Positions 39,238-54,277 of a stretch of DNA of 64,000 nucleotides are shown one piece after another (positions within the stretch are counted from its first letter, which is position 1; every line of letters starts with the position of its first letter). The notes below the pieces were generated by a model that saw nothing but the letters and a program-made list of their open reading frames with translations, was not told where the DNA came from and did no database searches. A program made the translations under genes and the position numbers. Source of the DNA: Candidatus Poribacteria bacterium (GTDB lineage: Bacteria > Poribacteria > WGA-4E > WGA-3G); the NCBI GenBank assembly GCA_965205015.1, contig OZ242029.1, forward strand, positions 2,880,001-2,944,000. The letters run 5' to 3'.

Positions 39238-42051
39238 CTACTCCTCTTCAAATTCCTGTGTGGTGAACCGCAGCGTTCGACAATTCTCTGTCACAATACG
39301 AACAATGTCATCAGGAACGCCATCTGAAACGTTGGCTTCAATATCCATCGTTATTTTAACATTTGCCCTCGGTAGACCGGTAAGGTGCTGGACGACTTCC
39401 TCTATAACCCGTTGTGCGGCAGGTCCTGTCCGTATTGTATCCAAGTCGACAGTGCCGTAGAAGCGTTTGGGTTTCGCTGTTTGTAGAGGCGCAGTGCCAG
39501 TCCCCGCGCCTTCTGTTTCTCCTCCGGATGTACCATAAGGCGATCCCTCCTCTTTCCCATCAAAATCCGGCTGCGGAGGTTGTGGAGGCTCTCCTTCTGT
39601 TTGTTCTGCTGCATCCGCTTCAAGCTGCTTTGCTGCTATATCAGGTTTTACCAACACGCTTGGTTTTTCAAGATAGATTGAACCGCTGGCACTGCCGAAT
39701 TGCAACCCGTTATACCGTCCTGTGTCGTCAACGCTGTTTGCGTATCCGAACGCCTTTGTTTTAATCCCTGCCTGAATTGTAGCGAGCAACACATCGGAAT
39801 CACGGAGGCGCGACAGATACAGATAAGTCGCGAGGCACTCCCACACGCGCTTGAGACTGATATGTGATTCCTCTTTCCAGAGCCAATTGTCCAGTTCCAT
39901 CTTTAACAGGATAGGCGACCATTTAGGGATAAGCTGCGCATCATCCCGGACTTTCGCAACGGCTTTTGCAACAGCAGTTTCCTGTGAACCGGGAATGCGT
40001 GTTTCTTCCCACACGATCGGGTCTGTTCCTTCTTGTGTTGGGACGAGGAGCCAAGAATACGCTTCGTTGAGTCGTATTCCGACAGTGTCATTGCTCTGCT
40101 CTTTACCACGCGTGGCTTCGCGCCGCTGGTTGGCGTCAAGGTTCAATGCTTCAACTTCTTGGACGATTGAGTCCCATGCGAGATAACGACGGGTTTCGCG
40201 TTCAAGGGAATCCCATTCTCCAGTGTCAGATGCGACGAAGATCAGCATATTGCGATAGGTTCTTGGGATGTCTCCCCGTTTTTCTAAAATCTCCGATACG
40301 GTTATAAGTGCCTCTGAATGTTGTGTTCTCGCTTGATGTCCGGCTATAGGTGGAACGATTACCAATCGCGCTGTCGATTCATCTGGGACATCTGCTGACG
40401 AAGGACACGCGTGGATGGCTTTAAAATCCCCACGCCTTTGGGTTTGTTGGCGCAATCGGCGGACAACCTCCGTCTCTACGACCTCTATTTCTAACTTAGC
40501 AGCACGGTCTTCCATTGTTCTACGGAGATTCGGATGCGTGTCATACCAATAGCGTTGGGCGCGGGTGTAAAGGTGCGTCAGTCGATCCGTCAAACGTTTG
40601 GTTGCATCATTGAACACTGAGACGTGCTCATCGGGCTGCGCGACACCGAGGCGAATTCGCATTTCTTCAAGACCGCGCACTGCTTGCCCACTCCCATGGG
40701 GCGCGCTCCCCATGAAGATTGTGCGTGCCACCCGTCGCGCCGCAGATATTTCACCAAAGCGTGTGTTCCCTTCGTCAATCGCGCGTGGCTCGGAACGGTC
40801 GCCATCCACGTCTTTATCCACAACGGCGTTCCAATTCTCCGGTAGGTAGCGAAGGAGTTCCTCTCGCACACGTGGTGAATCGAGTGGGATAGATCCGGGG
40901 AGAATGAGTGGAGAGCGATCTTCGTTTATCCATAGGTGATGGATAACGGCTGCCATTAAGCGCAGCACACCACGGGTTTTCTGGAAGCTCTCAAGGGGTG
41001 ACCAGTCGTCATAGAGTCTGTCGAACAGTTCAGGGTGGATCGGATACGCCCGCCGGAGCCGATCGAGATACGGGGCATCACGACATTCAACGGGAAAGTC
41101 TGAAGGATTTTCGTCGTATAATTGCGTGAACGCTCGGCAGACTGCATCATGAGTGGTTTTATCTTTGACGGGCGAGAACAACCGTCGCCGTACGATTTCA
41201 AATCCTTCATCTGCATCGACAGGTCTCCAGATACCTTCAAGCCTACCGATAGTGTGCTGAATGCGTTCCAACGCCGCTTTCCCTGCTTCACCGCCGATCT
41301 CGATGTCGGATTCCGGAATTGAAGCGACAAGTTGACTCCGTTCTGCAGTTTTGACTGCTTCCGTCAAGGACTGCACAAAGGTGAGGTTAGCGTCAAATGA
41401 ACCGGCGGGTAAGCCGTTGACACCGTATATGTTGCGGGTATATGCAACTAATTCGTCTATAAGGATGATCGCTGGACCAAATTCGTTGAGGAGCGTAGTG
41501 AGGTCGTTCGCACCTGGGGCAACGCTCTTTTTATCAGCGGTTTTTACGATTTCATATCCGTCTTGTCCACCGAGTTGTGCCGCAATGTTGCCCCAAAGCG
41601 TTCGGGTTTTTATCCCTTTTACTTCTTGCGTGCGAGATGGATTCAGGTCTGCTCCGACGATGACTGCGATACGGGCAACTGGGAGTTCGCTCACTTGTGC
41701 TTCGTGGAGAATAGCGTCTGCCCCTTCCATTTGCTCCGGACTTGCTTTCCCACTAAAGAGGTGATACAATGCCAGCATGCTGTGCGTTTTTCCACCACCG
41801 AATGCGGTTTTTAGTTGCACAATCGGTTCCCCGTTTTTTCCTGTTACCTGCTTAACAGCAGTCGCGAGAAGCCGTCGCATGCCTTCTGTGAGATAGGTTC
41901 GGGCGAAAAATTCTATTGGATCTTGATATTCCGCATCTGCTGTGCCGGCGATAACTTCACCGAGGTTGGCGGCGAATTCCGCTTGGTGATAACGTCCCGT
42001 CGCAATGTCAGGATGTGGAGTGACAACCTCTCTCCACGGGTTCAATGCCAT
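39238..42051 (-). CDS. DUF499 AAA+ ATPase (HmaC-like / BREX-related)
   Basis: PWREVVTPHPD, EFAANL, FFARTYLTEG, Walker A TAFGGGKTHS, ILIDELVAY, YPIHPELFDRLY, FQKTRGVLR. Confidence 0.92.
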   Translation of the reverse strand: MALNPWREVVTPHPDIATGRYHQAEFAANLGEVIAGTADAEYQDPIEFFARTYLTEGMRRLLATAVKQVTGKNGEPIVQLKTAFGGGKTHSMLALYHLFSGKASPEQMEGADAILHEAQVSELPVARIAVIVGADLNPSRTQEVKGIKTRTLWGNIAAQLGGQDGYEIVKTADKKSVAPGANDLTTLLNEFGPAIILIDELVAYTRNIYGVNGLPAGSFDANLTFVQSLTEAVKTAERSQLVASIPESDIEIGGEAGKAALERIQHTIGRLEGIWRPVDADEGFEIVRRRLFSPVKDKTTHDAVCRAFTQLYDENPSDFPVECRDAPYLDRLRRAYPIHPELFDRLYDDWSPLESFQKTRGVLRLMAAVIHHLWINEDRSPLILPGSIPLDSPRVREELLRYLPENWNAVVDKDVDGDRSEPRAIDEGNTRFGEISAARRVARTIFMGSAPHGSGQAVRGLEEMRIRLGVAQPDEHVSVFNDATKRLTDRLTHLYTRAQRYWYDTHPNLRRTMEDRAAKLEIEVVETEVVRRLRQQTQRRGDFKAIHACPSSADVPDESTARLVIVPPIAGHQARTQHSEALITVSEILEKRGDIPRTYRNMLIFVASDTGEWDSLERETRRYLAWDSIVQEVEALNLDANQRREATRGKEQSNDTVGIRLNEAYSWLLVPTQEGTDPIVWEETRIPGSQETAVAKAVAKVRDDAQLIPKWSPILLKMELDNWLWKEESHISLKRVWECLATYLYLSRLRDSDVLLATIQAGIKTKAFGYANSVDDTGRYNGLQFGSASGSIYLEKPSVLVKPDIAAKQLEADAAEQTEGEPPQPPQPDFDGKEEGSPYGTSGGETEGAGTGTAPLQTAKPKRFYGTVDLDTIRTGPAAQRVIEEVVQHLTGLPRANVKITMDIEANVSDGVPDDIVRIVTENCRTLRFTTQEFEEE

Positions 42052-42065
42052 TTTTTTCCTCTCTT

Positions 42066-42596
42066 CTATAAATCTGGGTCGCTTCGTTTTGATCTACGTC
42101 GTTCTTCAATAGTGTTCAATATTTTTTCTCGCCAAGAATTGATAAGTTTCAGTGCTTCGTCCTTCAGATCGGCCATCATTTCATCTTCTGTTGCCCCGAA
42201 TTCAGTTGATAAAGGTATATCAAATTCATTGGCTCCTTCAAGATAGACCTCTACAAGATGATTAGCGGCTTCCTCATCGTATTTAGATGTGCCGAGTAGA
42301 ATATCCACAGCCTCATCCTCGACTTCCCATGCAATTTCAGCGAAATGATAATCATAATTGTGTAAATCCGTGAGATAAGAGTCATAAGGCATCATATCAT
42401 AGAGACGCTCCTCAATCGGATCTGCTAACTCCTCAAGTTTATCCTGTGCAGAATTCTGGCTGAAATAATGGTTGCCAATAGGGGTCACCCGTAAGATCCG
42501 CAAGGTGGTTTCTATCAGAATCTTATCTCTACCGCGGGAATCAAGGCATCGAAAGAGTCTCACGAGTCGCTTTTCATCATCGGTTAAATTATCCAT
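42066..42596 (-). CDS. Acidic hypothetical protein embedded between methyltransferase and ATPase
   Basis: AAGGA RBS, ATG 42596; N-terminus LTDDEKRLVRLFRCLD; no clear domain. Confidence 0.7.
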   Translation of the reverse strand: MDNLTDDEKRLVRLFRCLDSRGRDKILIETTLRILRVTPIGNHYFSQNSAQDKLEELADPIEERLYDMMPYDSYLTDLHNYDYHFAEIAWEVEDEAVDILLGTSKYDEEAANHLVEVYLEGANEFDIPLSTEFGATEDEMMADLKDEALKLINSWREKILNTIEERRRSKRSDPDL

Positions 42597-42721
42597 TGTA
42601 GCATTCCTTAAATGTTTAGTTTTCAAATCACATTCTTTCAATTGAACAATCTTTGACTGTCACGCCTCAACCTGTTTTTCACACCAGATTCCTCAATTCG
42701 TGCAATTTAGCCGGAACTTCA

Positions 42722-45493
42722 TCATGACTCCTGAATATTAAATTCTTGCTGTGTTTCTCGTTCTTCGGAACGCACACGTTCTTCTTGAATACCCGCCCAT
42801 GAAGTAATAAGCGTGTTATAGGCAATCGCCTCCTGTGCCCAGCCGTTGCGTTCACAGATAGCGAAAAGGCGATATGCCAACGCGCGTGCATTCTCGACCT
42901 GTTCGCTGCTGAGTTGATTGGCAAGACGTGCGACTTCAGTCTCACCACTCTGATTGAGTTCTCTGATGAGGTATTGCGTGCATTCCCATGTATTTATACG
43001 TCTATCGGAAGTTGGATCCCATTCGTCAGGATATTCCTCACGGGAAAGCAGACGGACCCTTCCGGCACGCGCTTGTAGTATACCTGATTCGACTATACCT
43101 TCTACACTGGTGTCTCTGGCACGCGCAAGAACATCGGCATCACCAAAGGATGACTCTCTCATTCCGTACTGTTCAAACCACGAAACACAAAAGCGCGTGT
43201 CGGCATCGAGATCGCCTTCCTGCTCGGTGAAATAGGCATCAAGTTCGGCATTGATGATTTGCAGAGCAGTGCGAACCCGCATTGGATTCCCATCAGGTTC
43301 AAGGACACTGCTGTAATTCGAGAAGACTGCCATGCCGGGACCAATTGCTGCTTGTGCGAGATCAACGGGAGCAATATTACCCTGCTGCAGGTGTCTGAGT
43401 GCGTCAGGCAGTTCGCGCCGAAGCAAGGTAATAAAATCGCGTCGGGTCACCATACCTGCATCATCGGATCGCGGACGACAGACGAGAACAATTGAGGAGG
43501 CGAGGGCATTGGTTCCCATCGCGATTTGGCGATTTCTCATTTCTGTTCGCATCGGCAGTGTCCCTGTAATCTGAAAACCGGCTTTCAGCAACCCTTCAAG
43601 CATTGTTTCCCATCCCGTTGAGGAAACGCCTCCATCTTTGCTATCCATTTCGGACTGCTTAAAAGCGTAGTAGACAGTTAGAGGATAATCTGGATGTGAG
43701 CGCGCTTTCATGAGCTGGAAGGCTTTACCTAAACCTGTTAGAAAATGTTCTTCTGCTCTCCTTCTATCGCCGCCGAAACGATGACGGGCAGCAACGAGTT
43801 CCTCAGTTGTTGGAACAAGCATCAACTTAAACAAATCAGGATAGATTTGCCTTAGACTTCGACGCAACCAGATATAAAAAAAGTTTGAAAGTTCTGCATA
43901 ATCAATGTTATCGTAATACGGTGGATCGGTCGAAATAAGTGGAGTGTCAACATCTAGCAACGCCGAAGCAGCATCAAGCTGGGCGATACGCCCGTTCTGA
44001 ACCTGAATATTTCCCAAATTCTTATCGATAAACCGAGCACCCCATTCTACGCAAGCTAACCAATTTCCAGTTGAGTGACTGAAAGGATTAGACTCTGCAT
44101 AATCCCAGATCATCGCAATCGCTTGACGACCAAAAGTACTACGTATTTTCTCAGTATCGTTCTGCCAACAACAAAAACTTGACCCATAATCCGCCGCTTT
44201 ATCAACTGCAAAAGCCAAATAGGTCGCCACAGCATTAGCGTAAACCTCTGCTTCTTCACAATCTGATTTGATTGCCTCTTCCTTCACCTGTTTCTGTGCT
44301 TCGGCTATTAGATCGCTGAAGGTAGATAAAGCAGTTAATTGACGTTGTGTGAAAAGATTTGCCCAAGTAAAGAAACCATATCCGCGTCCACTGACTAAGG
44401 TTGTGGTATCCCTATTCATTTCGATCTCAGGGGTCCAATTAGGTATAGCAGATTCCGCAATTTTCTCATGTTTTTCTGATGGTGATAGATAAACTCGGCC
44501 TCGTTTTCCTTCAACAACAATTGCCATTAGTTTTGAATCCAGCCGACCTGCCATGCTTTCATTTTTAATATGTGTTTCAGGGCTGTCTTGATGGCAAACA
44601 AGGCACTGGAAACGCGCCCCTCTCCCTCTTTTTGTCGGTTCAGTGGGCACGCCGTCCCCTGTTTTTACGGTGAACTGCACAGTTTTATTCGTTTTATCAA
44701 CGACAGGTTCAATCCATGCCTTATTTCTTTCTCTTTTTGATAACCAAAAAGAGGTAACAAGCGGCATTCTTGCTTTGCAGGCTGGGTTCTGACATTTCAC
44801 CCTTCGCGCCCAAACCCACGCGATGACCGTTGCTTCACCGCCGCCCTGTTCCGTCGGCAGTTTCACTTTTGGGTAAAGATGTCCTATGCGTTTCTCGGCT
44901 TCACCACGTATCCATTTTCCATAGTAGCGGACATCTTCTGCTAACCCCATGGCCCCTCTCAATGTTTGGTTCTGCAGTGAATCATTCTGTGCGTCGGGAT
45001 TAACAGGCGGTTGCCCAGCAAAGCGTGGTAGAATTTCGATCATCGCCTTAGTGATTAGCACCGCGACGGGGTTAAGATCGCTGCCGTGTGCCTCTAAGCC
45101 AAGTCGTTGTGCTTCCAGCGGAATTGAACCGCCCCCGCAAAATGGATCTAACACAGGCGGCGGATTCCTATCCGTTGACTTAAGAATTTCGGCGCGTGCT
45201 TTTTTCAGAACATGCTCGTTATTAATATTTTCCCATTTCACCAAATCCTGAATGATCTCAAAAAGGCGTTTGCGTTCACGTTCTTGCTCTGCTTCGGTGA
45301 GATCGTCTCGACTGGAAGGGTCATCAACAAGTGAGGCAAATAGCACTGCACGACACGCTGCTAAAGGTCGGCGCGCCCACCAGAGGTGTAACGTGGATGG
45401 GTGTCCGTGACGGATAGATTTTTCGCGTGCGGCTTCGCGATTGATGTCATCTAACGGTAAAGCGACTTCAATCAGTTTTTTGCGGTAGGTCAC
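42722..45493 (-). CDS. DUF1156 amino-(adenine) DNA methyltransferase (HmaB-like)
   Basis: KKLIEVALPL, LHLWWARRPLAACRA, LDPFCGGGSIP (motif I), Zn-finger-like Cys pairs, TDPPYY (motif IV). Confidence 0.93.
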   Translation of the reverse strand: MTYRKKLIEVALPLDDINREAAREKSIRHGHPSTLHLWWARRPLAACRAVLFASLVDDPSSRDDLTEAEQERERKRLFEIIQDLVKWENINNEHVLKKARAEILKSTDRNPPPVLDPFCGGGSIPLEAQRLGLEAHGSDLNPVAVLITKAMIEILPRFAGQPPVNPDAQNDSLQNQTLRGAMGLAEDVRYYGKWIRGEAEKRIGHLYPKVKLPTEQGGGEATVIAWVWARRVKCQNPACKARMPLVTSFWLSKRERNKAWIEPVVDKTNKTVQFTVKTGDGVPTEPTKRGRGARFQCLVCHQDSPETHIKNESMAGRLDSKLMAIVVEGKRGRVYLSPSEKHEKIAESAIPNWTPEIEMNRDTTTLVSGRGYGFFTWANLFTQRQLTALSTFSDLIAEAQKQVKEEAIKSDCEEAEVYANAVATYLAFAVDKAADYGSSFCCWQNDTEKIRSTFGRQAIAMIWDYAESNPFSHSTGNWLACVEWGARFIDKNLGNIQVQNGRIAQLDAASALLDVDTPLISTDPPYYDNIDYAELSNFFYIWLRRSLRQIYPDLFKLMLVPTTEELVAARHRFGGDRRRAEEHFLTGLGKAFQLMKARSHPDYPLTVYYAFKQSEMDSKDGGVSSTGWETMLEGLLKAGFQITGTLPMRTEMRNRQIAMGTNALASSIVLVCRPRSDDAGMVTRRDFITLLRRELPDALRHLQQGNIAPVDLAQAAIGPGMAVFSNYSSVLEPDGNPMRVRTALQIINAELDAYFTEQEGDLDADTRFCVSWFEQYGMRESSFGDADVLARARDTSVEGIVESGILQARAGRVRLLSREEYPDEWDPTSDRRINTWECTQYLIRELNQSGETEVARLANQLSSEQVENARALAYRLFAICERNGWAQEAIAYNTLITSWAGIQEERVRSEERETQQEFNIQES

Positions 45494-45516
45494 AGGTTCT
45501 CCTTTCAGTGAATCGT

Positions 45517-45545
45517 ATCATAACACAAAAGCGGAAGTTGTGCAA
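45517..45545 (-). promoter_or_regulatory. Internal sigma70-like promoter for methyltransferase/ATPase genes
   Basis: Minus strand TTGCAC-N17-TATGAT with extended TG; AGGAG RBS before the GTG start at 45493. Confidence 0.65.
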
Positions 45546-45611
45546 ATTCAATCGTTTCGTTTCGACAGGCAACTCAGAGGAATTCAGTTTCCCGATAATT
45601 TCAATATCTTG

Positions 45612-46871: not shown

Positions 46872-47070
46872 GATACTTCCTCTAATGTTTCTAACACAAT
46901 GACACTACCTTTTCGTTTTCGGAACCTTATATTCGTCAGTATTCAAGAGATTTTGACGACCTTCCCAGTTATCTCATCATCCGGTAGGTTGGAGAAGCGG
47001 GACCCTTGGCGTGTGAGTTGGGCGAAATAGCACTCTCAACCATATAGGTTGTTGGCATTGAGGGGTAAAT

Positions 47071-47871: not shown

Positions 47872-48548
47872 TTTGGTTGCTCCTTTTCAAAGACCTGAGA
47901 CAGACTAACTACTGGATAGATAGTTCCTCTGTAATCGATGCTTGCCACAATTTCTGTCACTTCAATCGGATTTGTAAGAAACCATTCATTTCCTTGGGCA
48001 CGCGGGAGGTGCTTGCCATGTAGGGTGAGGACCCCATGTATGGCTTTCTCCATGGCCGCATGTAAATCTGTTCGAAAAAGAAGTGCGATTATAGGGGGTT
48101 TTGGGGTACCGCGCGTTTGGTTTTTCACCCGTGTTTCAGGTGCATCATATTTTATCTTCCCATTCTGGTCTACACCATCAGTTTTACCGATCTTGCATTC
48201 CCAAACAGACTTACCTTTTGATTCTGCGTCCTGTTTATCCTGTGAGAAATAGTAGAGATAGACCCAATGCGCCCCTTCGCCAAAAATCCATTGATCCTTC
48301 TGAGCAATGCGCCAAACTTGGTTGCCAATAAGACTTGTCTTTGCTTTTTTGCGTAAGTTATCTAATGCTCTAAATACTGTGATACTGCCACTTCCTCCTT
48401 CAGGTGGTTCTAATCCACCATGTTCTTTGTGCTTGCGAAGTAAGTACCTTCTTATGGTTCGAATCTTCGTACCGGATGTCCATGTCTCTGTGAGGAGTGC
48501 TTCTGCAATCTCTACGGAGAAATGCTGACTCTTATATTCATAATCCAT
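47868..48548 (-). CDS. GIY-YIG/T5orf172-like nuclease with N-terminal wHTH-like region
   Basis: WVYLYY...CKIGKT...RV...EKAIHGVL...GNEWF; start chosen at ATG 48548. Confidence 0.78.
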   Translation of the reverse strand: MDYEYKSQHFSVEIAEALLTETWTSGTKIRTIRRYLLRKHKEHGGLEPPEGGSGSITVFRALDNLRKKAKTSLIGNQVWRIAQKDQWIFGEGAHWVYLYYFSQDKQDAESKGKSVWECKIGKTDGVDQNGKIKYDAPETRVKNQTRGTPKPPIIALLFRTDLHAAMEKAIHGVLTLHGKHLPRAQGNEWFLTNPIEVTEIVASIDYRGTIYPVVSLSQVFEKEQPK

Positions 48549-48740
48549 ATTTTTCCCTATAATCTGAAAAATCTTTTCGAGGATGCCCTCAGAATCCCTT
48601 TGAAAAAGCATCCCCGCATGTTATCCTTCCATGTTTAAAGCGTATAACTATTTCAAATTATTGTGGTTGAATCCTGACTTTAGGCATTAATCGAGAGCAT
48701 AGGAAGGTGGCAGGGGACTACTTTCTGGAGTTGTCCTTTC

Positions 48741-49823
48741 TCATGCCTTGATACCAATTGAATTCAAAACTTTTTTGTATTCCCCCTCATTTTTGTTTTT
48801 GGGGGGAAGGAACATGAATCGCCTACGAACGCCTCTAAGCAGTGGAATCTCTTCTATGCATTTCTTGTGCCACATGTCTGAAGATATAAAAGTGACATTA
48901 GCATCGATAGCATAATATAGATATTCAAAATCCCTGAGTGCTCCTCGCGGAGATGAATTTTCTCTGTTCTCAGCGAGATATAAAAAAATAGTGGAATACA
49001 ATTGTGTGGCAGCCCGAGCGTATGGAGCAAATTTATCAATGGGTGGTTTTCCAGCCTTGTTAAATCGATTGAAAATTTCCGTTTGTTCATCAATAGAAAG
49101 CGGTATAATGGATACGTTGCATAAGAATTTTAATATGGACTCGGTATCGTAGTAAATTGCTTTATGAACCCATCTGTAAGCCTTTTCAAGAGTATTGAGT
49201 ATGAAAAATTCTTTATAGTTATCTCGGTAGTTGTCTAAAGCCTCTCTGATATCTGAAACATTTCTACGACCTCTTGCTATGAGAGGAACTCTTGCACTTA
49301 GTGGGATATTTTGACTGAACTGTCCGATTGCTTGGTTAAATTCCCGTACAATATTTTCGTCGGGAATATCTCTGTGATCCTTGGCTAATTCAATCAATTT
49401 TGCATCTCCAATATCTATGCCACGAAGTAGAGACATTTGGTTTTTGAGTCGTTTTTCTGCTGCTTCCATTCCCTCCACAACACGAAGTGCTTGTCTTTCC
49501 ATTTCTTCGCGATCTGCTTCTGGCTCGCTATAGATTGATGCAGTTGGTATTTTTGCTCCAACTCTGTAGCGATGTGATGATGCTTTAAGCAGATCCAGTT
49601 TGGCACGTTGTCCCCAGTGAAGAACATTTATCGTATTTTCAAAGTCAAATAAGGCACTCGGTTTGTCGAGTCCATGTTGAGCGTTCTCAATAAAGAGAAT
49701 TGGCGGATAGAGGATCGCATGTTTGGAATCTAACCTTTTACGCTGTTCCGAGTTCAATAAACGTAAAACGGATTTGTCCAAAAGTAGTAATTTTTTTTCT
49801 ACTTTTCTTTTTCTTTTCTTCAT
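48741..49823 (-). CDS. Large PIN-like fold protein
   Basis: N-terminal LLLLDKS and LFIE; C-terminal RDFEYLYY...FISSD; ~250-aa helical insert; AGGAG RBS before ATG 49823. Confidence 0.6.
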   Translation of the reverse strand: MKKRKRKVEKKLLLLDKSVLRLLNSEQRKRLDSKHAILYPPILFIENAQHGLDKPSALFDFENTINVLHWGQRAKLDLLKASSHRYRVGAKIPTASIYSEPEADREEMERQALRVVEGMEAAEKRLKNQMSLLRGIDIGDAKLIELAKDHRDIPDENIVREFNQAIGQFSQNIPLSARVPLIARGRRNVSDIREALDNYRDNYKEFFILNTLEKAYRWVHKAIYYDTESILKFLCNVSIIPLSIDEQTEIFNRFNKAGKPPIDKFAPYARAATQLYSTIFLYLAENRENSSPRGALRDFEYLYYAIDANVTFISSDMWHKKCIEEIPLLRGVRRRFMFLPPKNKNEGEYKKVLNSIGIKA

Positions 49824-49824
49824 T

Positions 49825-50595
49825 TTAAAGCCTCTCCTTTTCCACAAGGAAACCGTGTTGTGTGAGTTCAGTAGATGCAACTTTCCAGACTGCGCGTGCT
49901 TGTTTAACAGCCTCAGATGCGTCTGTTTCCGTGGCTTCTTGCACGTCGTCTGGATAGCGAGCTCCGACTGCCCATCTGTTGAGGTCTCCTAAGTTTGGTA
50001 GAGCGGTTTTGAGGTGCCAACTCTCAGGCAGCAAGTCCCGTAGAACGTTCAAGTCATGTGTTCTCTGAAAATCGATCTGTAAGAAGATTAATACCGCCTT
50101 TAGAGCCTTCTCAGCCGCTTGTTGCGCGTGCCAACAGGCTTGGCGAGGTGGAACATGTGAATGCCCTAAAAAAGTTTCAGCAGTTATTAAATCTTCCTCC
50201 GCATGGCGCAGCCAGCGGACAGTGTCTATGAGTTGATCCCTTGTTTGTATAGCGGATTTTATCTTCTTCTTGGGCATACTGCACCGACTTTTCCAAAGGA
50301 CTTTACCCTCTTGTTGGGCATACCGCAGCACGGAGCCGATCCGAGTGCGGCTGCGTTCAAGCTCCTCGGGGGTGGATACGATGATGTCTTTTGCGACAGG
50401 TAAATCAGATAGTGCGCGATCAATAGCAATGGCGATTTTCCGTTTATCCGTGAGTTCCCCAAAAACCACGAGCAGATCTATGTCGCTATCTCGATCTGCG
50501 TCCCCTCGTGCCTGTGAACCGAAGAGGATAATCTGCAAAGGGTTGAAGTCCCGCACGATGCGCTCTGTCATGATTGGGATAAAATCGTTATTCAT
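49825..50595 (-). CDS. Fused minimal nucleotidyltransferase (MNT)-HEPN protein
   Basis: LFGSQARGDADRDSDIDLLVV then AEEDL...HAQQAAEKALKA...THDL...ARYP in one frame; GGAGGTG RBS before ATG 50595. Confidence 0.85.
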   Translation of the reverse strand: MNNDFIPIMTERIVRDFNPLQIILFGSQARGDADRDSDIDLLVVFGELTDKRKIAIAIDRALSDLPVAKDIIVSTPEELERSRTRIGSVLRYAQQEGKVLWKSRCSMPKKKIKSAIQTRDQLIDTVRWLRHAEEDLITAETFLGHSHVPPRQACWHAQQAAEKALKAVLIFLQIDFQRTHDLNVLRDLLPESWHLKTALPNLGDLNRWAVGARYPDDVQEATETDASEAVKQARAVWKVASTELTQHGFLVEKERL

Positions 50596-50617
50596 CTGAT
50601 TTTCACCTCCCAATTTC

Positions 50618-53600
50618 TTAACTCGGTGCTTCCGCACGAGCAAGCAGTTTGTTGAGGTTATAATTGACGCTTGTCGCGTTGAAGTCCGGTTCCTTCTGGA
50701 ACGGTTCTCGAATGTAGCGAGGTTCTTTCACTGTCTCACCATCTATTTCAACGATAGCGAGAATAAAGTTGTCCGGCTTGTTGAATGCCGTAAAAATCTG
50801 CGTTTTAGAAACAGTAACAGTTGTCGCAGCAACGGACTTTCCTTTTACCTCAATGAACAACAACTGATTGGTGTTCGGATCCCTGGACTCAATGTCGTAG
50901 CCAGGATTTTCATGGTGCATCTCTTTCGGCTCTCGACCCAACCTGCATTCTGCCTCCATAACAGCATCGACTGCGAGTCTATCAATTCGTTCTCTGTCGG
51001 TTTGCGAAACTTCAATAGATGTGGGGAGTTCGGGCTCGGTGGCAGCCTCTAATAAACGCCGTGGGACAATAAGCGCACCACCGATAACGACCGGTGACAT
51101 TGGTGAGATACGACGCTCCAATTCTAACTCGTCTGTCCGTTTTTGAAGTCGTGCTTGCAATTCATCAGCGCGTTGCCGTGCCTGTGCAGCATTGAGACTC
51201 GCCATCTGTTTCCCGGCTTCCTCTTGCAGTTTTAGCTCATAAGCCCGGTTGTCCCAGTGGTTAATCTCTTTTGTCAATCGTGCTTTGACTGCGTCCATCG
51301 TTTTTTGCACAAGTCGTTCTTTATGCGCCTTGATTTCATTGAGATGTTCTGGGATAAGATGTTCCGCTGCATAAGCGATAATCTCCGATTCCAGATCGTC
51401 CCGTAACCACTGTGCTTCTAATACTGTTGCTATCCCTGAACGTTCATCGTCAGTTATTGGGCGGTAGTCGAGGTAAGGAGCGTATCCCGGATTGCTAACA
51501 ACTTTGTTGCTATTGATTTCCACAAATTGCATTTGCCGCGAAACAGTCCATCTGTTGCCATCACGGCGCACACGTCCATCTTGGATAGCATGCTCAAGAT
51601 AAAATAGGACGCGAACGTCATCACTCTGTTCATGCGGATCCACCAAAATAGCACCTTGTTTAAGTAGGTTGCGGTGGTGTTCGAGTATTAAATCCAACGT
51701 TGCATCCAGCAACGGATGTCCCGGACAGACGAACGCGGCGAGCGGTTTGCCTTGAATGCGAACCTTATCCTTTTCAAATGTAATCCGCTCGTATCGCTGT
51801 TGGATAGGTTCACCGCTGCCGATACTTATGTCTCGGTTACGAATTATCGCGGGGACATTACGAATTTCGTAGCGTTTGGGTTCACGTTCTCGAAGGGTTC
51901 CACCAAGTTGTGCAAACGCCTCACGGAAAAAAGAGGCGATAAAGTGCGGCTGCAAACGCCTCGCTTCTGCGCGTTCCATTTCATCACGGATGTTACCGAG
52001 TTGAGTTGTATCAATTGTTCCATGTGTTAAGGAGTGTTCATCAATCAGTGATTGTAAATGATTTCTATCTAATGCGCTGTCAATCACTTCTGTCAGTCGT
52101 GCCTTGACTTCAGGTGTGTCGCCTGCACGAATCGCGTCAATGAGCATATCCCGTAATGATGTATCGGTAAAACATTTACCGAGTACATCGAAGACCGCGC
52201 CTCCCAATGCTTTACGCTGTTGTTCAAGTTTGTCGAGGAGTGCCTCAAACACTGCGCCCTCGCGAGTGTCTGAGGCGACAAGATTCCAGAGGTGACACAC
52301 TTCTGTCTGTCCGATTCGGTGGATCCGTCCGAACCGCTGTTCAACGCGATTGGGATTCCACGGCAGGTCGTAGTTCACCATAAGATGTGCGCGTTGTAGA
52401 TTGATACCTTCACCTGCAGCATCCGTTGCAACCAAAATTTGTACCTCTGGGTCTTGGGTGAATAATTCCTGGACCTTCTGTCGATCGTTATGTCGCATGC
52501 TGCCGTGAATCGTGACAACCGCTTCGGGGCGTCCGATCAGTGTTTGAATGCGTTCTGTCAAATAGCGGAGCGTATCTCGATGCTCTGTGAAGATGATGAG
52601 TTTGCGCCGATATCCTTGCAGGTTAAACAATTCGTGAGCAGGAGCATCGCCTTCCCCTTGTAAAAGATTTGACAATTCCTCCCACTTCCGGTCTGTACCG
52701 CTTTGGTGGACGTTTTGTGCGAGCGTCTCTAAGCGTTGAAGCGTCTGGATTTCAGCTTGCAGTTCAGCAATAGTCTGCGCTGCCGAGGCACGTGCGACGA
52801 CTGCTTCCTCAGTCGTTTCCACTTCTTCAGCGGGGGCTTCGTCATAAAAGTCGTCTGCCTGCGCAGCGTCCGCAGGTAGGTTATCATCCGCTTGTATATC
52901 TAACCTATCTTGGGCATGAGGCTTGCGTTGTTTTTCTTCCTGTTGCCGTTCTTCCAACCGTTCCCGGCGACGTTGGATTGAGCGATAAATCGCCTCTGGT
53001 GAGGATGCAAGTCTTCGCTGTAGGATGGTGAGCGCGAAGCCGACTCTGTTACCGCGTTGCCCATCAAGCCGGTCGGCGCGATTCATCTCCTCGCGGACGT
53101 ATTCTGTTACCTCGTCGTATAGTTCCGCCTCTAATTCAGATAACTCGTAGTTAACCGTGTAAGCGAACCGTTCTGGGAAGAGCCGTGTCCCATCGAATTT
53201 CAGCAGCTCTTCTTTAACCATACGACGCATCAGATCGGAGGTATCCACGGTAGGGACGCCTTCTCGAAAACGTCCTGCAAACCGATCCGGATCGAGGAGT
53301 GCCATAAAGCGTTGAAACTCCGCTTCTTTACCGTTGTGGGGTGTCGCGGTTAACAATAGAAAATGGCGTGTAAGGTTTCCAAGCAATTCCCCGAGTTGAT
53401 AGCGTTTTGTCAGAGATATTTTATTCCCAAAGACTGAAGCCGACATCTTGTGTGCTTCATCACAGACGATAACGTCCCAGTTGGTTACCTTTAATTTCGC
53501 TTGAATATCTTCACTACGACTTAATTGGTCCAGCCGACAGATAAGGAGATTCTCTTCCTGAAACAGGTTGCCAGTGCGAGCTGTATTAAATTTTTCGCGG

Positions 53601-54148
53601 GTGAAAACCTCAAAGGAGAGATAAAAGCGTTGACGGAGTTCTGCCTGCCACTGCTCGACGAGGCTACCCGGACATACAATCAGGCACCGTTTCAGGTCGC
53701 CGCGGACGAGGAGTTCCTTGAGATACAACCCGGTCATAATCGTCTTTCCTGCGCCGGGATCATCCGCGAGCAGATAGCGCAAAGGTTGGCGTGGCAGCAT
53801 CTCTTCGTAAACCGCGGTAATTTGGTGTGGTAGCGGTTCTACTTGTGAGATGTGGACTGCCAGACGCGGATCAAACAGATGTGCCAACCGAATGCGATGG
53901 GCTTCAGAGACAAGCCGAAAATTCTCACCATCTCCGTCAAAACTCCATGGGAGGCTTTCGGTGAGGATTTCAAGGGAGGATTCACTCTCGCGGTACAGGA
54001 GTTCACTACCGAGTTGACCATCGGCAGCTTTGTAAGTCAGTTCAATTCCAACAGTCCCTAACGGTTTCGCAGCAACAACGGTGACCTGTTGGTTCGGTAA
54101 TATGCCTTTGACAATAGTGCCTGGTTGAAGTTCTTCTAAGCGTGCCAA
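50618..54148 (-). CDS. SNF2-family helicase with C-terminal DUF3883 (NOV-like) nuclease domain (HmaA-like)
   Basis: PLPHQ, LLADDPGAGKT, DEAH, LTATPH, ATDAAGEGINLQ, EQRFGRIHRIGQ; C-terminal GYDIES...IEVKG. Confidence 0.93.
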   Translation of the reverse strand: MARLEELQPGTIVKGILPNQQVTVVAAKPLGTVGIELTYKAADGQLGSELLYRESESSLEILTESLPWSFDGDGENFRLVSEAHRIRLAHLFDPRLAVHISQVEPLPHQITAVYEEMLPRQPLRYLLADDPGAGKTIMTGLYLKELLVRGDLKRCLIVCPGSLVEQWQAELRQRFYLSFEVFTREKFNTARTGNLFQEENLLICRLDQLSRSEDIQAKLKVTNWDVIVCDEAHKMSASVFGNKISLTKRYQLGELLGNLTRHFLLLTATPHNGKEAEFQRFMALLDPDRFAGRFREGVPTVDTSDLMRRMVKEELLKFDGTRLFPERFAYTVNYELSELEAELYDEVTEYVREEMNRADRLDGQRGNRVGFALTILQRRLASSPEAIYRSIQRRRERLEERQQEEKQRKPHAQDRLDIQADDNLPADAAQADDFYDEAPAEEVETTEEAVVARASAAQTIAELQAEIQTLQRLETLAQNVHQSGTDRKWEELSNLLQGEGDAPAHELFNLQGYRRKLIIFTEHRDTLRYLTERIQTLIGRPEAVVTIHGSMRHNDRQKVQELFTQDPEVQILVATDAAGEGINLQRAHLMVNYDLPWNPNRVEQRFGRIHRIGQTEVCHLWNLVASDTREGAVFEALLDKLEQQRKALGGAVFDVLGKCFTDTSLRDMLIDAIRAGDTPEVKARLTEVIDSALDRNHLQSLIDEHSLTHGTIDTTQLGNIRDEMERAEARRLQPHFIASFFREAFAQLGGTLREREPKRYEIRNVPAIIRNRDISIGSGEPIQQRYERITFEKDKVRIQGKPLAAFVCPGHPLLDATLDLILEHHRNLLKQGAILVDPHEQSDDVRVLFYLEHAIQDGRVRRDGNRWTVSRQMQFVEINSNKVVSNPGYAPYLDYRPITDDERSGIATVLEAQWLRDDLESEIIAYAAEHLIPEHLNEIKAHKERLVQKTMDAVKARLTKEINHWDNRAYELKLQEEAGKQMASLNAAQARQRADELQARLQKRTDELELERRISPMSPVVIGGALIVPRRLLEAATEPELPTSIEVSQTDRERIDRLAVDAVMEAECRLGREPKEMHHENPGYDIESRDPNTNQLLFIEVKGKSVAATTVTVSKTQIFTAFNKPDNFILAIVEIDGETVKEPRYIREPFQKEPDFNATSVNYNLNKLLARAEAPS

Positions 54149-54277
54149 ATTGAGTCATCCTTGCGTTTTAGGTTAATTGAAATAGTTGCGAATGGAACGG
54201 ATTTCGCAGATTTTGGGAACTCTATTTTTTTACGGTTTTCGTAAAAATGTAATGAATTTTACCGATGCCAATGCCTT

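What the first reader, a model, noticed from the sequence alone, without database searches (positions are those of the whole stretch)
39238..54148. Helicase-DUF1156 methylase-DUF499 ATPase defence scaffold carrying six embedded candidate anti-phage genes
Seen: three large co-oriented core genes (SNF2-DUF3883, DUF1156 MTase, DUF499 ATPase), five genes inserted between helicase and MTase, and one between MTase and ATPase. Most cargo genes are visibly more AT-rich than the core. Known: this triad corresponds to the Hma / BREX-related DUF499 systems, whose internal positions are described as hotspots for other defence genes. Inference: the cargo (MNT-HEPN, large PIN-like, GIY-YIG-like, Abi-alpha-like, HNH, unknown) is a stack of mostly uncharacterised immune effectors. 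This is the best candidate here for new biology.
Basis: partly seen in the sequence, partly recalled or inferred. Interest (0 to 1): 0.8.

Follow-up and report, generated by a model that had tools for sequence, protein, structure and literature searches.

The report
Hma defence operon stuffed with cargo
A known three-gene anti-phage system (Hma) in a sponge-symbiont genome has six extra, mostly nuclease-like genes wedged between its core genes; this kind of embedding is already published, but four of the six gene families are unnamed.

Summary
Nine co-oriented minus-strand genes span 39238-54148. PADLOC scores the three large ones as HmaA (1685 bits), HmaB (1179) and HmaC (1144). Five genes lie between HmaA and HmaB and one between HmaB and HmaC. 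Five of the six are AT-rich outliers.

In 51 related loci, both junctions vary: the A-B spacer runs 14-4579 bp (window 5124, the largest) and the B-C spacer 14-3515 bp. The slots elsewhere hold CBASS, DarT/macro, OLD-type ATPases, GmrSD, Schlafen and TPR-PIN genes. A poribacterial locus with the same flanks (L007) carries only c1.

This hotspot is already in print (PMC11232893; PMC12839542).

Cargo identities:
- c1: MNT-HEPN fusion, solid.
- c3: T5orf172, solid.
- c5: HNH plus a confidently folded remainder with no structural neighbour.
- c2: PIN-like, lead only. Acidic residues and Atlas hits agree; the Foldseek PDB search found nothing.
- c4: Abi-alpha-like, lead only.
- c6: a small acidic protein sitting where half the relatives fuse HEPN_Swt1 to HmaC, but not homologous to it.

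Immune function of the cargo is inferred from position only. Verdict: a new member of a known kind, of moderate interest.

The parts
50618..54148 (-). HmaA: Snf2-family helicase with a C-terminal PD-(D/E)XK (NOV_C/DUF3883) nuclease, 1176 aa
   Evidence: PADLOC HmaA 1684.8 bits over residues 1-1175. Pfam SNF2-rel_dom, Helicase_C and NOV_C. Motifs GAGKT132, DEAH230, GYDIE1083 and IEVKG1099 are present.
49825..50595 (-). c1: single-chain minimal nucleotidyltransferase + HEPN (PF05168) fusion, 256 aa from M17 (the ORF runs to 50643)
   Evidence: Pfam NTP_transf_2 7.3e-12 and HEPN 9.3e-22. GSx9DSDID motif. A 69-70% identical orthologue sits in the same slot in L007. GC 0.495. dN/dS 0.16.
48741..49823 (-). 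c2: 360-aa protein of an unnamed family, read as a PIN-like nuclease core split by a helical insert of about 210 aa; it starts 1 nt after the c1 stop
   Evidence: 84 homologues, none with a Pfam domain. D16, E46 and D298 are invariant and D316 nearly so. AlphaFold2 model pLDDT 80.1 with strands at 12-15, 36-39, 64-66, 310-314 and 336-338. Atlas PIN-family neighbours TM 0.53-0.62. Foldseek against PDB found nothing.
47868..48611 (-). [quoted passage not shown]
   Evidence: Pfam T5orf172 22.0 bits against a cut-off of 20. KIGKT140 and EWF209 motifs. Cluster alignment A8.
47071..47871 (-). c4: 266-aa protein of an unnamed family with a possible distant Abi-alpha-like fold
   Evidence: 228 homologues without a Pfam domain. 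Atlas on homologue P0122: Abi_alpha cluster TM 0.51/0.58, feature score 0.87. No transmembrane segment.
45612..46871 (-). c5: 419-aa HNH (HNH_5-type, Cys4) nuclease with a conserved unnamed remainder
   Evidence: HNH_5 at E 2.3e-5 in the window protein and in 34 of 57 family members. 140 representative clusters. Model pLDDT 85.1, pTM 0.86. No PDB or viral structural neighbour at E<=0.001. A 73% orthologue lies in the same slot in L004.
45517..45546 (-). Conserved promoter-like element (TTTGCA-N18-TG-TATGAT) directly upstream of HmaB; the right-hand edge of the A-B cargo slot
   Evidence: Consensus scan, sequence. By my reading of alignment A7, it is aligned in 10 of 12 poribacterial loci whatever lies upstream. 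DNA homology to relatives resumes at 45547-45553.
42722..45493 (-). HmaB: DUF1156 N6-adenine methyltransferase, 923 aa, with a variable target-recognition insert at residues 241-520
   Evidence: PADLOC HmaB 1179.4 bits. Pfam DUF1156 1.4e-29. FCGGG118 and DPPY523. Identity profile across 9 orthologues.
42066..42596 (-). c6: 176-aa acidic protein (pI 4.6 for the 191-aa ORF) of a narrow unnamed family, ending 14 nt before the HmaC start
   Evidence: 32 homologues. No Pfam, PADLOC, NCBIfam or PHROGs match. Orthologues in the same slot in L004 and L005. dN/dS 0.17-0.22. Not related to HEPN_Swt1.
39238..42051 (-). HmaC: DUF499 AAA+ ATPase, 937 aa, of the form without an N-terminal HEPN
   Evidence: PADLOC HmaC 1143.8 bits over residues 1-936. 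Pfam DUF499 4.3e-35. GGGKT85 and IDEL198. The N-terminal HEPN_Swt1 extension is present in 19 of 39 relatives and absent here.

Best explanation
This is a Type-1 DUF499-centred BREX-related (Hma) restriction-modification-like system. It sits at a conserved chromosomal site of a poribacterium, a sponge symbiont. Its two inter-gene junctions have been filled by horizontally acquired genes that are mostly AT-rich and nuclease-like.

Core mechanism (inferred from family knowledge and published work, not tested here):
- HmaB methylates adenines in host DNA at a motif set by its variable insert.
- HmaC, an ORC/STAND-like ATPase, senses or licenses.
- HmaA translocates on DNA and nicks it with its PD-(D/E)XK domain.

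Cargo slots (shown here):
- Slot 1 runs from the HmaA stop codon to a conserved HmaB promoter-like element about 55 nt before the HmaB start.
- Slot 2 runs from the HmaB stop to about 10 nt before the HmaC start.
- Slot 1 holds a mosaic. c1 is next to HmaA, as in L007. c5 is next to HmaB, as in L004. A 3-kb block (c2, c3-c4) found in none of 51 relatives lies between them.

Cargo function (inferred): c1, c2, c3-c4 and c5 are separate, mainly nuclease-type second-line defence or abortive-infection modules. They use the operon as a safe, co-transcribed landing site. I do not read them as obligatory Hma subunits.

c6 (inferred): a non-enzymatic partner or regulator of HmaC.
For: Core identity:
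- PADLOC gives 1685, 1179 and 1144 bits for HmaA, HmaB and HmaC, each full length.
- The catalytic motifs are intact.
- Published function: Halomonas HmaA alone protects E. coli from T4 and needs its nickase residues (PMC11232893, abstract and section 17 part 1).

Hotspot:
- The A-B spacer is measurable in 37 of 51 loci: 11 are <=150 bp, 2 are 151-999 bp and 24 are >=1000 bp.
- The B-C spacer is measurable in 35 loci after subtracting the fused HEPN: 19 are <=150 bp, 6 are 151-999 bp and 10 are >=1000 bp.
- 45 of 77 slot ORFs of >=100 aa have Pfam hits. By my reading most of these are defence-type: CD-NTase+SAVED, DarT+Macro, OLD/AAA_15/AAA_21, GmrSD, Schlafen, NYN, Fic, HNH, PD-(D/E)XK.

Sharp junctions: blastn against 12 poribacterial loci loses homology at 50614-50619 and regains it at 45484-45553 (45547-45553 in 8 of the 10 loci that reach the HmaB start). 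It loses it again at 42721-42786 and regains it at 42039-42061.

Orthologous site: L007 shares both flanks at 70-78% amino-acid identity and L016 shares one flank at 82-94%.

Cargo turnover (tblastn, E<=1e-5):
- c1 is found in 2 of 51 loci.
- c5 is found in 2 of 51.
- c6 is found in 2 of 51.
- c2, c3 and c4 are found in 0 of 51.

Foreign composition: GC of c2-c6 is 0.378-0.430, against a minimum of 0.453 for 20 other genes of the window.

The genes are maintained: dN/dS is 0.16-0.22.

Independence of the modules:
- Distant c4 relatives sit on Listeria and Arsenophonus plasmids without Hma. The Listeria one is next to a HEPN protein and an AAA ATPase.
- Atlas look-alike clusters of c2 and c4 are commonest in Pseudomonadota and Actinomycetota.
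Against: - No cargo gene matches a validated defence model. In PADLOC, c2, c3, c4 and c6 match nothing. c1 matches only the MNT-only candidate PDC-S09. c5 gives a 43-residue HNH match to PtuB at E 0.0043. Immune function therefore rests on location alone.
- No independent promoter- or terminator-like site lies in the 129-bp and 199-bp spacers, and the scans overall do not exceed shuffles. The transcription units are not established.
- The tight coupling (1 nt between c1 and c2, a 4-nt overlap of c3 and c4, 14 nt between c6 and HmaC) would fit integrated subunits equally well.
- The related loci were chosen through HmaB. Finding c1, c5 and c6 only in Hma loci says nothing about enrichment.
- In the Halomonas paper, HmaB overexpression did not change T4 infectivity (section 18). 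The methylation-based self-marking step is unproven even for the family.
Confidence: 0.65

Rival explanations
1. The cargo genes are functionally integrated 'auxiliary/backup effectors' of the Hma machine, as PMC12839542 proposes for BREX and BR loci. HmaC or HmaA senses the invader and hands over to, or is backed up by, the embedded nucleases. c6 replaces the fused HEPN_Swt1 module on HmaC.
For: - All genes share one strand, with very short spacers (1 nt, -4 nt, 14 nt), and no separate promoter or terminator signals were found in the spacers.
- The paper reports HNH, HEPN(-MNT) and PIN nucleases embedded within core loci and argues that they are retained rather than sporadic (sections 29 and 35).
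- c6 lies exactly where 19 of 39 relatives carry a 155-192 aa HEPN_Swt1 extension of HmaC.
Against: - The cargo differs between orthologous loci. L007, with the same flanks, has c1 only and an empty B-C slot.
- L016 has the most similar HmaC (86%) yet lacks c6, while L005 (79%) has it.
- Slot contents elsewhere are complete, self-sufficient systems: CBASS, DarTG-like and GmrSD.
- The GC of c2-c6 marks them as recent arrivals.
- c6 shows no homology to HEPN_Swt1: hmmsearch found no hit at E<=10 and hhalign gave probability 0.2%.
Confidence: 0.2
2. The cargo genes are selfish elements rather than defences. On this view HNH (c5) and T5orf172 (c3) are homing-endonuclease-like genes, and MNT-HEPN (c1) and PIN (c2) are toxin-antitoxin-type addiction modules. 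They accumulate at junctions where insertion does no harm.
For: - HNH and T5orf172 are classic homing-endonuclease families in phages (PMC10448857, search listing only).
- PIN and HEPN-MNT are classic toxin-antitoxin families (PMC12839542 section 35).
- AT-rich composition.
- IS elements occur in or beside several such loci: the window at 54587-55966, and L004, L010 and L038.
Against: - c3 and c5 have no tblastn match in 50,697 phage records or 72,556 plasmids.
- The c5 model has no viral structural neighbour at E<=0.001.
- c5 keeps a conserved remainder of about 350 aa across 140 representative clusters. That is not expected of a minimal homing nuclease.
- No antitoxin-like partner is evident for c2.
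- c1 fails the MntA model, scoring 34.2 bits against a cut-off of 60.
- The same slots in relatives hold validated defence systems.
Confidence: 0.12
3. c6 is not cargo at all. It is a lineage-specific fourth subunit of poribacterial Hma, translationally coupled to HmaC.
For: - A 14-nt spacer separates c6 from HmaC.
- Orthologues lie in the same slot in L004 (86%) and L005 (84%).
- dN/dS is 0.17-0.22.
- The family is narrow, 32 proteins. The only named members are poribacterial.
Against: - c6 is absent from 9 of the 11 poribacterial loci that cover the B-C junction. Three of these (L001, L003, L010) hold a Phd/YefM-like ORF there and one (L002) an HNH gene.
- Its GC is 0.416 against 0.519 for HmaC.
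- Binding to HmaC could not be tested.
Confidence: 0.3

Closest known systems
Hma system (HmaA-HmaB-HmaC) of Halomonas meridiana, with defence genes inserted in the operon (PMC11232893; defined bioinformatically in PMC8565338)
   Same: The same three core families in the same order. HmaA has the Snf2 core plus a NOV_C PD-(D/E)XK domain with the D...ExK residues. Genes are inserted between hmaA and hmaB and between hmaB and hmaC. The paper reports insertions in about 66.5% of hma systems; I found 26 of 37 A-B junctions above 150 bp.
   Different: The Halomonas insertions are Septu, PARIS, Ppl, an AAA_21 pair and a GmrSD-like gene. None of those is here. The window holds MNT-HEPN, a PIN-like protein, T5orf172 plus an Abi-alpha-like protein, an HNH protein and a small acidic protein. 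With five genes in 5.1 kb it has the largest A-B load of the 38 junctions I could measure.
Type-1 DUF499-centred BREX-related (BR) system, with 'auxiliary/backup nuclease effectors' (PMC12839542, sections 28, 29 and 35 read)
   Same: A tripartite core of DUF499 ATPase, DUF1156 N6-methyltransferase with a nested target-recognition insert, and helicase-REase. Embedded HNH, HEPN (sometimes fused to MNT) and PIN nucleases are described.
   Different: The window has the HEPN-less DUF499 form. The main text has no occurrence of GIY-YIG, T5orf172 or Poribacteria. Its supplementary catalogues could not be opened, so I cannot say whether these loci or families are listed there.
Type-3 BREX (BrxC, BrxXI methyltransferase, BrxHII helicase)
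   Same: Homologous helicase and methyltransferase. PADLOC BrxHI/BrxHII models score 322 and 301 bits on HmaA, and PglXI gives a weak match on HmaB. The paper derives BR systems from this lineage.
   Different: I saw no PglZ, BrxA, BrxB or BrxL among the window's ORFs of >=150 aa. The Hma models score far higher than the BREX ones.
Abi-alpha (ef2833, DUF4393/PF14337) of Enterococcus faecalis prophage 6 (PMC6356687, passages read)
   Same: Similar size: 272 aa against 266 aa for c4. Single soluble protein. The Atlas structural neighbour of a c4 homologue is an Abi_alpha cluster, TM 0.51/0.58.
   Different: No sequence match: 0 of 61 c4-family members hit PF14337 at E<=1. c4 overlaps a T5orf172 gene by 4 nt, a pairing I found in no paper.
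VapC-type PIN nucleases, and T5orf172 proteins of phage-satellite conflicts (CapR of PLE: bioRxiv 10.1101/2021.07.12.452122, passages; Odn of ICP1: search listing only)
   Same: c2 keeps four acidic residues at the ends of strands 1 and 4 and in two helices, as PIN enzymes do (the PIN residue pattern is recalled). c3 has the KIGxT and EWF hallmarks of T5orf172 (hallmarks recalled).
   Different: c2 carries a helical insert of about 210 residues, and the whole model finds no PDB neighbour. c3 has an unrelated N-terminal domain and no phage homologue.

Membership tests
Hma / Type-1 BR system | Snf2-family helicase with a C-terminal PD-(D/E)XK (NOV_C) nuclease | tested here: met
   PADLOC HmaA 1684.8 bits. 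Pfam SNF2-rel_dom 5.9e-18, Helicase_C 4.6e-24, NOV_C 1.1e-15. Motifs GAGKT, DEAH, GYDIE and IEVKG.
Hma / Type-1 BR system | DUF1156-type N6-adenine methyltransferase | tested here: met
   PADLOC HmaB 1179.4 bits. Pfam DUF1156 1.4e-29. FCGGG118 and DPPY523.
Hma / Type-1 BR system | DUF499 AAA+ ATPase | tested here: met
   PADLOC HmaC 1143.8 bits. Pfam DUF499 4.3e-35. Walker A GGGKT85 and Walker B IDEL198.
Hma / Type-1 BR system | The three genes co-oriented in the order A, B, C | tested here: met
   In every related locus where tblastn found two or three of the genes, they lie in this order on one strand.
Hma / Type-1 BR system | Protects against phage | not testable with these tools
   Shown only for Halomonas HmaA in E. 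coli against T4 (PMC11232893).
HEPN-fused DUF499 subtype of Type-1 BR | N-terminal HEPN (HEPN_Swt1) on the ATPase | tested here: not met
   The window HmaC starts at the shared residue 1. 19 of 39 relatives have a 155-192 aa extension. 4 of 4 extensions tested are PF18731.
HEPN_Swt1 (as a split-off domain), for c6 | Sequence or profile similarity to the HEPN extension of relatives' HmaC, with a conserved Rx4-6H | tested here: not met
   hmmsearch of the extension profile found no c6 hit at E<=10. hhalign probability 0.2%. No conserved His in the family alignment.
Type VII HepT/MntA toxin-antitoxin, for c1 | Separate MNT antitoxin and HEPN toxin with a conserved Rx4-6H; matches the MntA model | tested here: not met
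   c1 is one fused polypeptide. NCBIfam MntA scores 34.2 bits against a cut-off of 60. The only Rx4H (R167-H172) is H->F in the L007 orthologue.
MNT + HEPN(PF05168) fusion proteins, for c1 | NTP_transf_2 with the GSx9-13DxD motif, followed by a PF05168 HEPN domain | tested here: met
   Both domains score above their Pfam cut-offs: 46.0 against 21 and 77.8 against 22 bits. Motif at residues 42-56.
PIN-domain nucleases, for c2 | Match to a PIN sequence model | tested here: not met
   0 of 54 family members match any PIN Pfam family at E<=1. The PDB profile search found 0 hits.
PIN-domain nucleases, for c2 | Four conserved acidic residues on an alpha/beta/alpha fold with a five-stranded sheet | tested here: inconclusive
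   D16, E46 and D298 are invariant and D316 nearly so. They lie after strand 1, in helix 41-49, in helix 295-305 and after strand 310-314. Atlas neighbours include VapC, DUF3368, PIN_3 and PIN_4 clusters with TM-by-row 0.44-0.62. Foldseek against PDB gave 0 matches at E<=0.001.
T5orf172 (GIY-YIG-like), for c3 | Match to PF10544 above the gathering score | tested here: met
   22.0 bits against a cut-off of 20, E 2.4e-4, residues 118-225 over profile positions 2-100 of 101.
Abi_alpha (PF14337), for c4 | Match to PF14337 | tested here: not met
   0 of 61 family members at E<=1. Only a structural lead, TM 0.51/0.58, and a feature score of 0.87 to a cluster in which 25% of members carry the family.
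HNH_5 endonucleases, for c5 | Cys4 HNH motif and a match to PF14279 | tested here: met
   The window protein scores 24.7 bits, just under the cut-off of 27.5. 34 of 57 aligned relatives match, best E 5.6e-11. C6, C9, C40, C43, E18, H19 and N44 are invariant or nearly so.
Septu (PtuA/PtuB), for c5 | PtuB-type HNH protein next to a PtuA ATPase | tested here: not met
   Only a 43-residue PtuB match at E 0.0043. At most 1 of 57 relatives matches each PtuB model. No ATPase gene lies adjacent.

The most novel reading that the evidence does not exclude
At least one of the unnamed cargo families is a new anti-phage gene with its own mechanism. The candidates are:
- c5, an HNH nuclease joined to a confidently folded remainder that has no structural neighbour in PDB or BFVD.
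- c2, a PIN core split by a helical insert of about 210 residues.
- The overlapping c3-c4 pair, T5orf172 plus an Abi-alpha-like protein.

In addition, c6 could be a new small acidic partner that takes the place of the HEPN_Swt1 module on the DUF499 ATPase. That would show that the N-terminal position of HmaC is itself an exchangeable effector or regulator socket.
Probability: 0.3. Interest if true: 0.6.

Novelty: new member of a known kind. Interest (0 to 1): 0.42.

Why it matters
The scaffold and the idea that defence genes nest inside it are already published. The value here is practical.

- The locus defines the two cargo slots to within a few nucleotides. It shows that HmaB keeps its own conserved promoter-like element behind slot 1.
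- It gives an orthologous comparison between a nearly empty site (L007, c1 only) and a filled one (the window).
- It supplies a short list of conserved, selected gene families (c2, c4, c5, c6) that no domain or defence database names.
- If embedding in Hma predicts immune function as well as defence islands do, these are cheap candidates for cloning.
- Sponge symbionts such as Poribacteria are uncultivated, so such loci are one of the few routes to their phage-defence repertoire.

Tried and rejected
- c6 as a split-off HEPN domain of HmaC: rejected. A profile of 19 HEPN_Swt1 extensions found nothing in c6, hhalign gave 0.2%, and the family has no conserved His.
- c5-like protein P0237 (975 aa) as a read-through into HmaB: rejected. 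Its C-terminal half contains sequence I read as TPR repeats and is not DUF1156.
- Direct or inverted repeats flanking the cargo: none convincing. Only the inverted repeats of the IS stand out.
- RNA elements: 0 Rfam matches in the window at gathering score, and 0 in 38400-54700 at E<=0.1. No tRNA.
- Sequence searches of PDB: nothing credible for c2-c6, either as single proteins or as profiles A1-A4. The best was LSm3 at E 0.0093 for c6, which I judge to be chance.
- PHROGs: nothing useful.
- E. coli genomes: no match to the island.
- Phages and plasmids: no match for c2 in plasmids, nor for c3 or c5 in either collection.
- hhalign of the c2 family against the two-sequence PIN domain of the L001 and L003 TPR-PIN proteins: no signal. 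The template is too thin to count against the PIN reading.
- c2-c3-c4 as a fixed cassette: only a proxy was possible. Contig lengths coincide for a 13,385-bp contig (c2, c3 and c4 homologues), a 3,943,163-bp contig (c3 and c4), a 5,955-bp contig (c2 and c4) and a 6,302-bp contig (c4 and c5). By my comparison of the listed lengths, most c2 and c4 homologues show no such coincidence. This is not proof of adjacency.
- The Atlas did not hold the window's own c4, so homologues P0122 and P0067 were used instead.
Only c2 and c5 could be folded, as the cap is 2 jobs. c3, c4 and c6 were not folded.

Full report
**1. What is there**

Between 39238 and 54148, nine ORFs lie head to tail on the minus strand. 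Three are large:
- ORF 50618-54148 (1176 aa) scores PADLOC HmaA 1684.8 bits over its full length. It carries Pfam SNF2-rel_dom, Helicase_C and NOV_C.
- ORF 42722-45493 (923 aa) scores HmaB 1179.4 bits and carries DUF1156.
- ORF 39238-42051 (937 aa) scores HmaC 1143.8 bits and carries DUF499.

The NCBIfam models for the related PLD-helicase/DUF1156/DUF499 system and for DISARM DrmD match only far below their cut-offs. Hma is therefore the right label.

The expected catalytic motifs are all present:
- HmaA: GAGKT, DEAH and the D...ExK of the nuclease.
- HmaB: FCGGG and DPPY.
- HmaC: GGGKT and IDEL.

**2. The cargo genes**

Five ORFs lie between HmaA and HmaB (c1-c5) and one between HmaB and HmaC (c6).

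Corrected starts:
- c1 starts at M17.
- c2 starts at M20. A 100%-identical database entry is 360 aa.
- c3 probably starts at M22.
- c6 starts at M16.

With these starts the spacers are: A-22-c1-1-c2-129-c3-(-4)-c4-199-c5-118-B-125-c6-14-C. If c3 starts at M22, the c2-c3 spacer is 192 nt.

GC content:
- c2-c6: 0.378-0.430.
- Core genes: 0.479-0.519.
- Twenty other genes of the window: mean 0.494, sd 0.022, minimum 0.453.
- c1: 0.495, like the core.

**3. Setting**

On one side lie Wza/Wzc-type polysaccharide export genes and a SnoaL-like gene. On the other lie an IS, then sugar-nucleotide genes and a NYN-domain protein. The IS is a DDE transposase at 54743-55885, bounded by 30-nt inverted repeats at 54587-54616 and 55937-55966.

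The nearest HmaB relatives in one-genome-per-species contigs are Candidatus Poribacteria MAGs, at 63-81% identity.
- L007 shares both flanks with the window at 70-78% amino-acid identity.
- L016 shares the downstream flank at 82-94%.

The window is therefore poribacterial, and the Hma locus sits at an orthologous chromosomal site in at least these genomes. I saw no transposase-sized ORF at the corresponding place in L007.

**4. Are the junctions hotspots?**

I used tblastn of the nine proteins against 51 loci and chained the coordinates.

*A-B spacer.* It could be measured in 37 loci. The other 14 lack one gene end or have an interrupted gene; L008 and L038 are among them. Of the 37, 11 are <=150 bp, 2 are 151-999 bp and 24 are >=1000 bp. 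The maximum is 4579 bp; the window's 5124 bp is larger still.

*B-C spacer.* It was measurable in 35 loci. In 19 of the 39 loci where the HmaC N-terminus is visible, HmaC carries an in-frame extension of 155-192 aa. All 4 extensions tested are Pfam HEPN_Swt1, E 5e-25 to 2e-39. After subtracting this extension, 19 spacers are <=150 bp, 6 are 151-999 bp and 10 are >=1000 bp.

*Slot contents.* Of 77 slot ORFs of >=100 aa, 45 have Pfam matches at E<=1e-4. Together they include:
- CD-NTase with SAVED or HNH-SAVED (L004, L006, L008, L020; CD-NTase alone in L011).
- TPR-PIN giants of about 1300 aa (L001, L003).
- DarT plus Macro (L037).
- OLD/AAA_15/AAA_21 ATPases (L009, L026, L028, L032, L041, L051).
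- GmrSD (L026).
- Schlafen/AlbA_2 (L019, L027, L032, L048).
- NYN (L024, L028).
- Fic (L045).
- HNH (L002).
- PD-(D/E)XK types, DUF6602, DUF3644, HD-CE and NUDIX.
- Sacsin-like giants (L012, L015).
- A second DUF1156 methylase (L024, L030).
- Transposases.

Some of the 32 ORFs without a match are opposite-strand ORFs lying over the HEPN extension and are probably spurious.

**5. Where exactly are the slots?**

I ran blastn of the island against 12 poribacterial loci.
- Homology stops at the HmaA stop codon (50614-50619). It resumes at 45484-45553 (45547-45553 in 8 of the 10 loci that reach the HmaB start), which is about 55-60 nt before the HmaB start.
- It stops again after the HmaB stop (42721-42786). 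It resumes at 42039-42061, around the HmaC start.

The exceptions show the mosaic:
- L007 continues through c1 to 49884.
- L004 continues from 46912 through c5 into HmaB.
- L004 and L005 carry c6.
- Nothing in the 12 loci matches 49884-46912 (c2, c3, c4).

The conserved stretch before HmaB holds a promoter-like TTTGCA-N18-TG-TATGAT and an AAAGGAG ribosome-binding site. By my reading of alignment A7, it aligns in 10 of 12 poribacterial loci regardless of what lies upstream. I infer that HmaB, c6 and HmaC have their own promoter, so that filling slot 1 does not cut off the methylase. This is an inference from sequence only.

**6. Cargo one by one**

*c1.*
- Pfam NTP_transf_2 (7.3e-12) plus HEPN PF05168 (9.3e-22), in one chain.
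- The GSx9DSDID transferase motif is present.
- It fails the MntA antitoxin model, at 34.2 bits against 60.
- PADLOC matches only its transferase half to the candidate PDC-S09.
- Its single Rx4H is not conserved in the 70%-identical L007 orthologue. I therefore do not claim HEPN RNase activity.
- L008 has a copy broken into two ORFs, upstream of HmaA.

*c2.*
- 84 homologues, all >=51% identical. None has a Pfam domain, and one is named as poribacterial.
- No Pfam PIN match in 0 of 54 members. 10 of 54 give a weak EAD9 match, best E 0.0011.
- D16, S18, E46 and D298 are invariant. D316 and H319 are nearly so.
- The AlphaFold2 model has pLDDT 80.1 and pTM 0.75. It puts D16 after strand 12-15, E46 in helix 41-49, D298 in helix 295-305 and D316 after strand 310-314. 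An all-helical insert lies between about 94 and 305.
- For a 53%-identical homologue, the Atlas's own model has full-length neighbours in unnamed clusters of 376-431 aa, one of them with SEC-C. Its partial neighbours fall in VapC, DUF3368, PIN_3 and PIN_4 clusters, with TM-by-row 0.44-0.62 and 125-140 aligned residues spanning the whole chain.
- Against this, Foldseek of my whole model against PDB found 0 of 415 listed matches at E<=0.001; the best was 0.88.
- I rate 'PIN-like with a large insert' at about 0.65.

*c3.*
- Pfam T5orf172, 22.0 bits against a cut-off of 20.
- The KIGKT and EWF motifs are present.
- The N-terminal domain of about 95 residues is unassigned.

*c4.*
- 228 homologues, none with a Pfam family.
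- Atlas on homologue P0122: unnamed clusters commonest in Actinomycetota and Pseudomonadota at TM 0.72-0.76. An Abi_alpha cluster follows at TM 0.51/0.58, with feature score 0.87. This is a lead, not membership.
- There are two weak plasmid relatives. One, on Listeria pLIS4, lies beside a HEPN protein and an AAA ATPase.

*c5.*
- 140 representative clusters at E<=1e-3, of which 29 are at <=1e-30.
- HNH_5 matches 34 of 57 aligned members.
- A second conserved block (R270, A273, K274, F277, H278 ... H330) is in no Pfam family.
- At most 1 of 57 members matches any PADLOC model.
- The model has pLDDT 85.1 and pTM 0.86. It has no neighbour at E<=0.001 in PDB (best 0.077) or in BFVD (best 0.046).

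*c6.*
- 32 homologues, mostly >=59% identical.
- Acidic, with pI 4.6 for the 191-aa ORF.
- No conserved His or other catalytic pattern.
- No family in any library.

None of the six has a transmembrane-like segment.

**7. Selection and linkage**

dN/dS by the Nei-Gojobori method:
- c1 against L007: 0.16.
- c5 against L004 and L010: 0.21 and 0.20.
- c6 against L004 and L005: 0.17 and 0.22.
- HmaC: 0.14-0.15.
- HmaA: 0.11.

Contig-length coincidences suggest that close relatives carry c2+c3+c4 together (13,385 bp) and c4+c5 together (6,302 bp). By my comparison of the listed lengths, most c2 and c4 homologues show no such coincidence. This is a weak proxy for linkage.

**8. Mechanism**

*Shown here:* the identity and integrity of the core, the two slots, cargo turnover at an orthologous site, foreign composition, and purifying selection.

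*From the literature:*
- Halomonas HmaA alone protects E. coli against T4. Protection needs D1084, E1104, K1106 and E1121, and the isolated domain nicks supercoiled plasmid (PMC11232893 section 17 part 1).
- The same paper states that about 66.5% of hma systems carry insertions, and calls the region a defence-gene insertion hotspot (abstract and section 18).
- PMC12839542 renames Hma as Type-1 BR. It describes the HEPN-fused DUF499 form and catalogues embedded HNH, HEPN(-MNT), PIN, PD-(D/E)XK, TOPRIM-OLD and Schlafen effectors (sections 28, 29, 35).
- PADLOC's authors defined Hma from 1,638 operons in 26 phyla, often found with Septu (PMC8565338 passages).

*Inferred:* the cargo modules act as independent second-line nucleases or abortive-infection genes, and c6 is an HmaC partner.

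**9. Novelty**

The scaffold, the hotspot and several cargo classes are already published.

What I could not find in print:
- T5orf172 together with DUF4393 or Abi_alpha: 0 papers.
- GIY-YIG, T5orf172 or Poribacteria in the main text of PMC12839542: 0 occurrences each.

Four families (c2, c4, c5, c6) are unnamed in Pfam, NCBIfam, PHROGs and PADLOC v2.

I file the locus as a new member of a known kind.

**10. Limits**

- There is no experimental test.
- Only two proteins could be folded.
- The 51 loci were selected through HmaB, so they cannot measure enrichment of the cargo families near defence genes.

Noticed in passing
window 54587-55966: An IS element: a DDE_Tnp_1 transposase (54743-55885, + strand) bounded by 30-nt inverted repeats that are 90% complementary. 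It lies 438 bp upstream of the HmaA start. I saw no transposase-sized ORF at the corresponding place in the syntenic locus L007.
   Followed up: partly
window 45517-45546, and L001-L004, L006-L008, L010, L020 just upstream of HmaB: A conserved promoter-like element (TTTGCA/TTTACA, 17-18 nt, TGnTATGAT) plus a ribosome-binding site. By my reading of alignment A7 it is kept in 10 of 12 poribacterial loci whatever cargo lies upstream. This suggests that HmaB-HmaC are transcribed independently of HmaA and the slot-1 cargo.
   Followed up: partly
window 43934-44773 (HmaB residues 241-520): The target-recognition insert of the methylase is the variable, AT-richer part of the gene. Identity to 9 orthologues is 0.31-0.64 here against 0.61-0.93 elsewhere. 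DNA homology is lost around about 43950-44700 in 7 loci: L001, L005, L007, L010, L016, L020 and, judging by the split ORFs, L008. This points to specificity swapping.
   Followed up: partly
L001:9161-9595, L003:12775-13197, L010:12809-13228: In three poribacterial loci the B-C slot holds a 139-144 aa ORF with an N-terminal Phd/YefM antitoxin-like domain (E 1e-7 to 2e-6, near the Pfam cut-off). No obvious toxin gene lies beside it.
   Followed up: no
L024:10046-12895 and L030:8414-11221: A second full-length DUF1156 methylase gene sits in the B-C slot, so these Hma loci carry two methylases.
   Followed up: no
L012:5798-9970 and L015:5817-9965; L001:2119-6045 and L003:5894-9835: Single giant cargo genes fill the A-B slot: proteins of about 1390 aa with a weak Sacsin-domain match, and TPR-PIN proteins of about 1310 aa (PIN-TPR-GreABC).
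   Followed up: no
L038:2777-9757: HmaA appears interrupted. A 761-aa N-terminal ORF and a separate ORF containing NOV_C are separated by IS3-type transposase genes, and an IS66 transposase gene follows the NOV_C ORF.
   Followed up: no
L008:1930-2658: The c1 homologue lies upstream of HmaA and is broken into two ORFs of 106 and 84 aa. It is probably a decaying copy.
   Followed up: no
window 59179-60867: A 562-aa protein with a C-terminal NYN domain (E 6e-32) and an N-terminal region of about 400 aa without a Pfam match. It is conserved at 70% identity at the same place in L007.
   Followed up: no
window 38887-38909 and 38988-39010: A 23-nt direct repeat, 91% identical, in the AT-rich spacer downstream of HmaC.
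   Followed up: no
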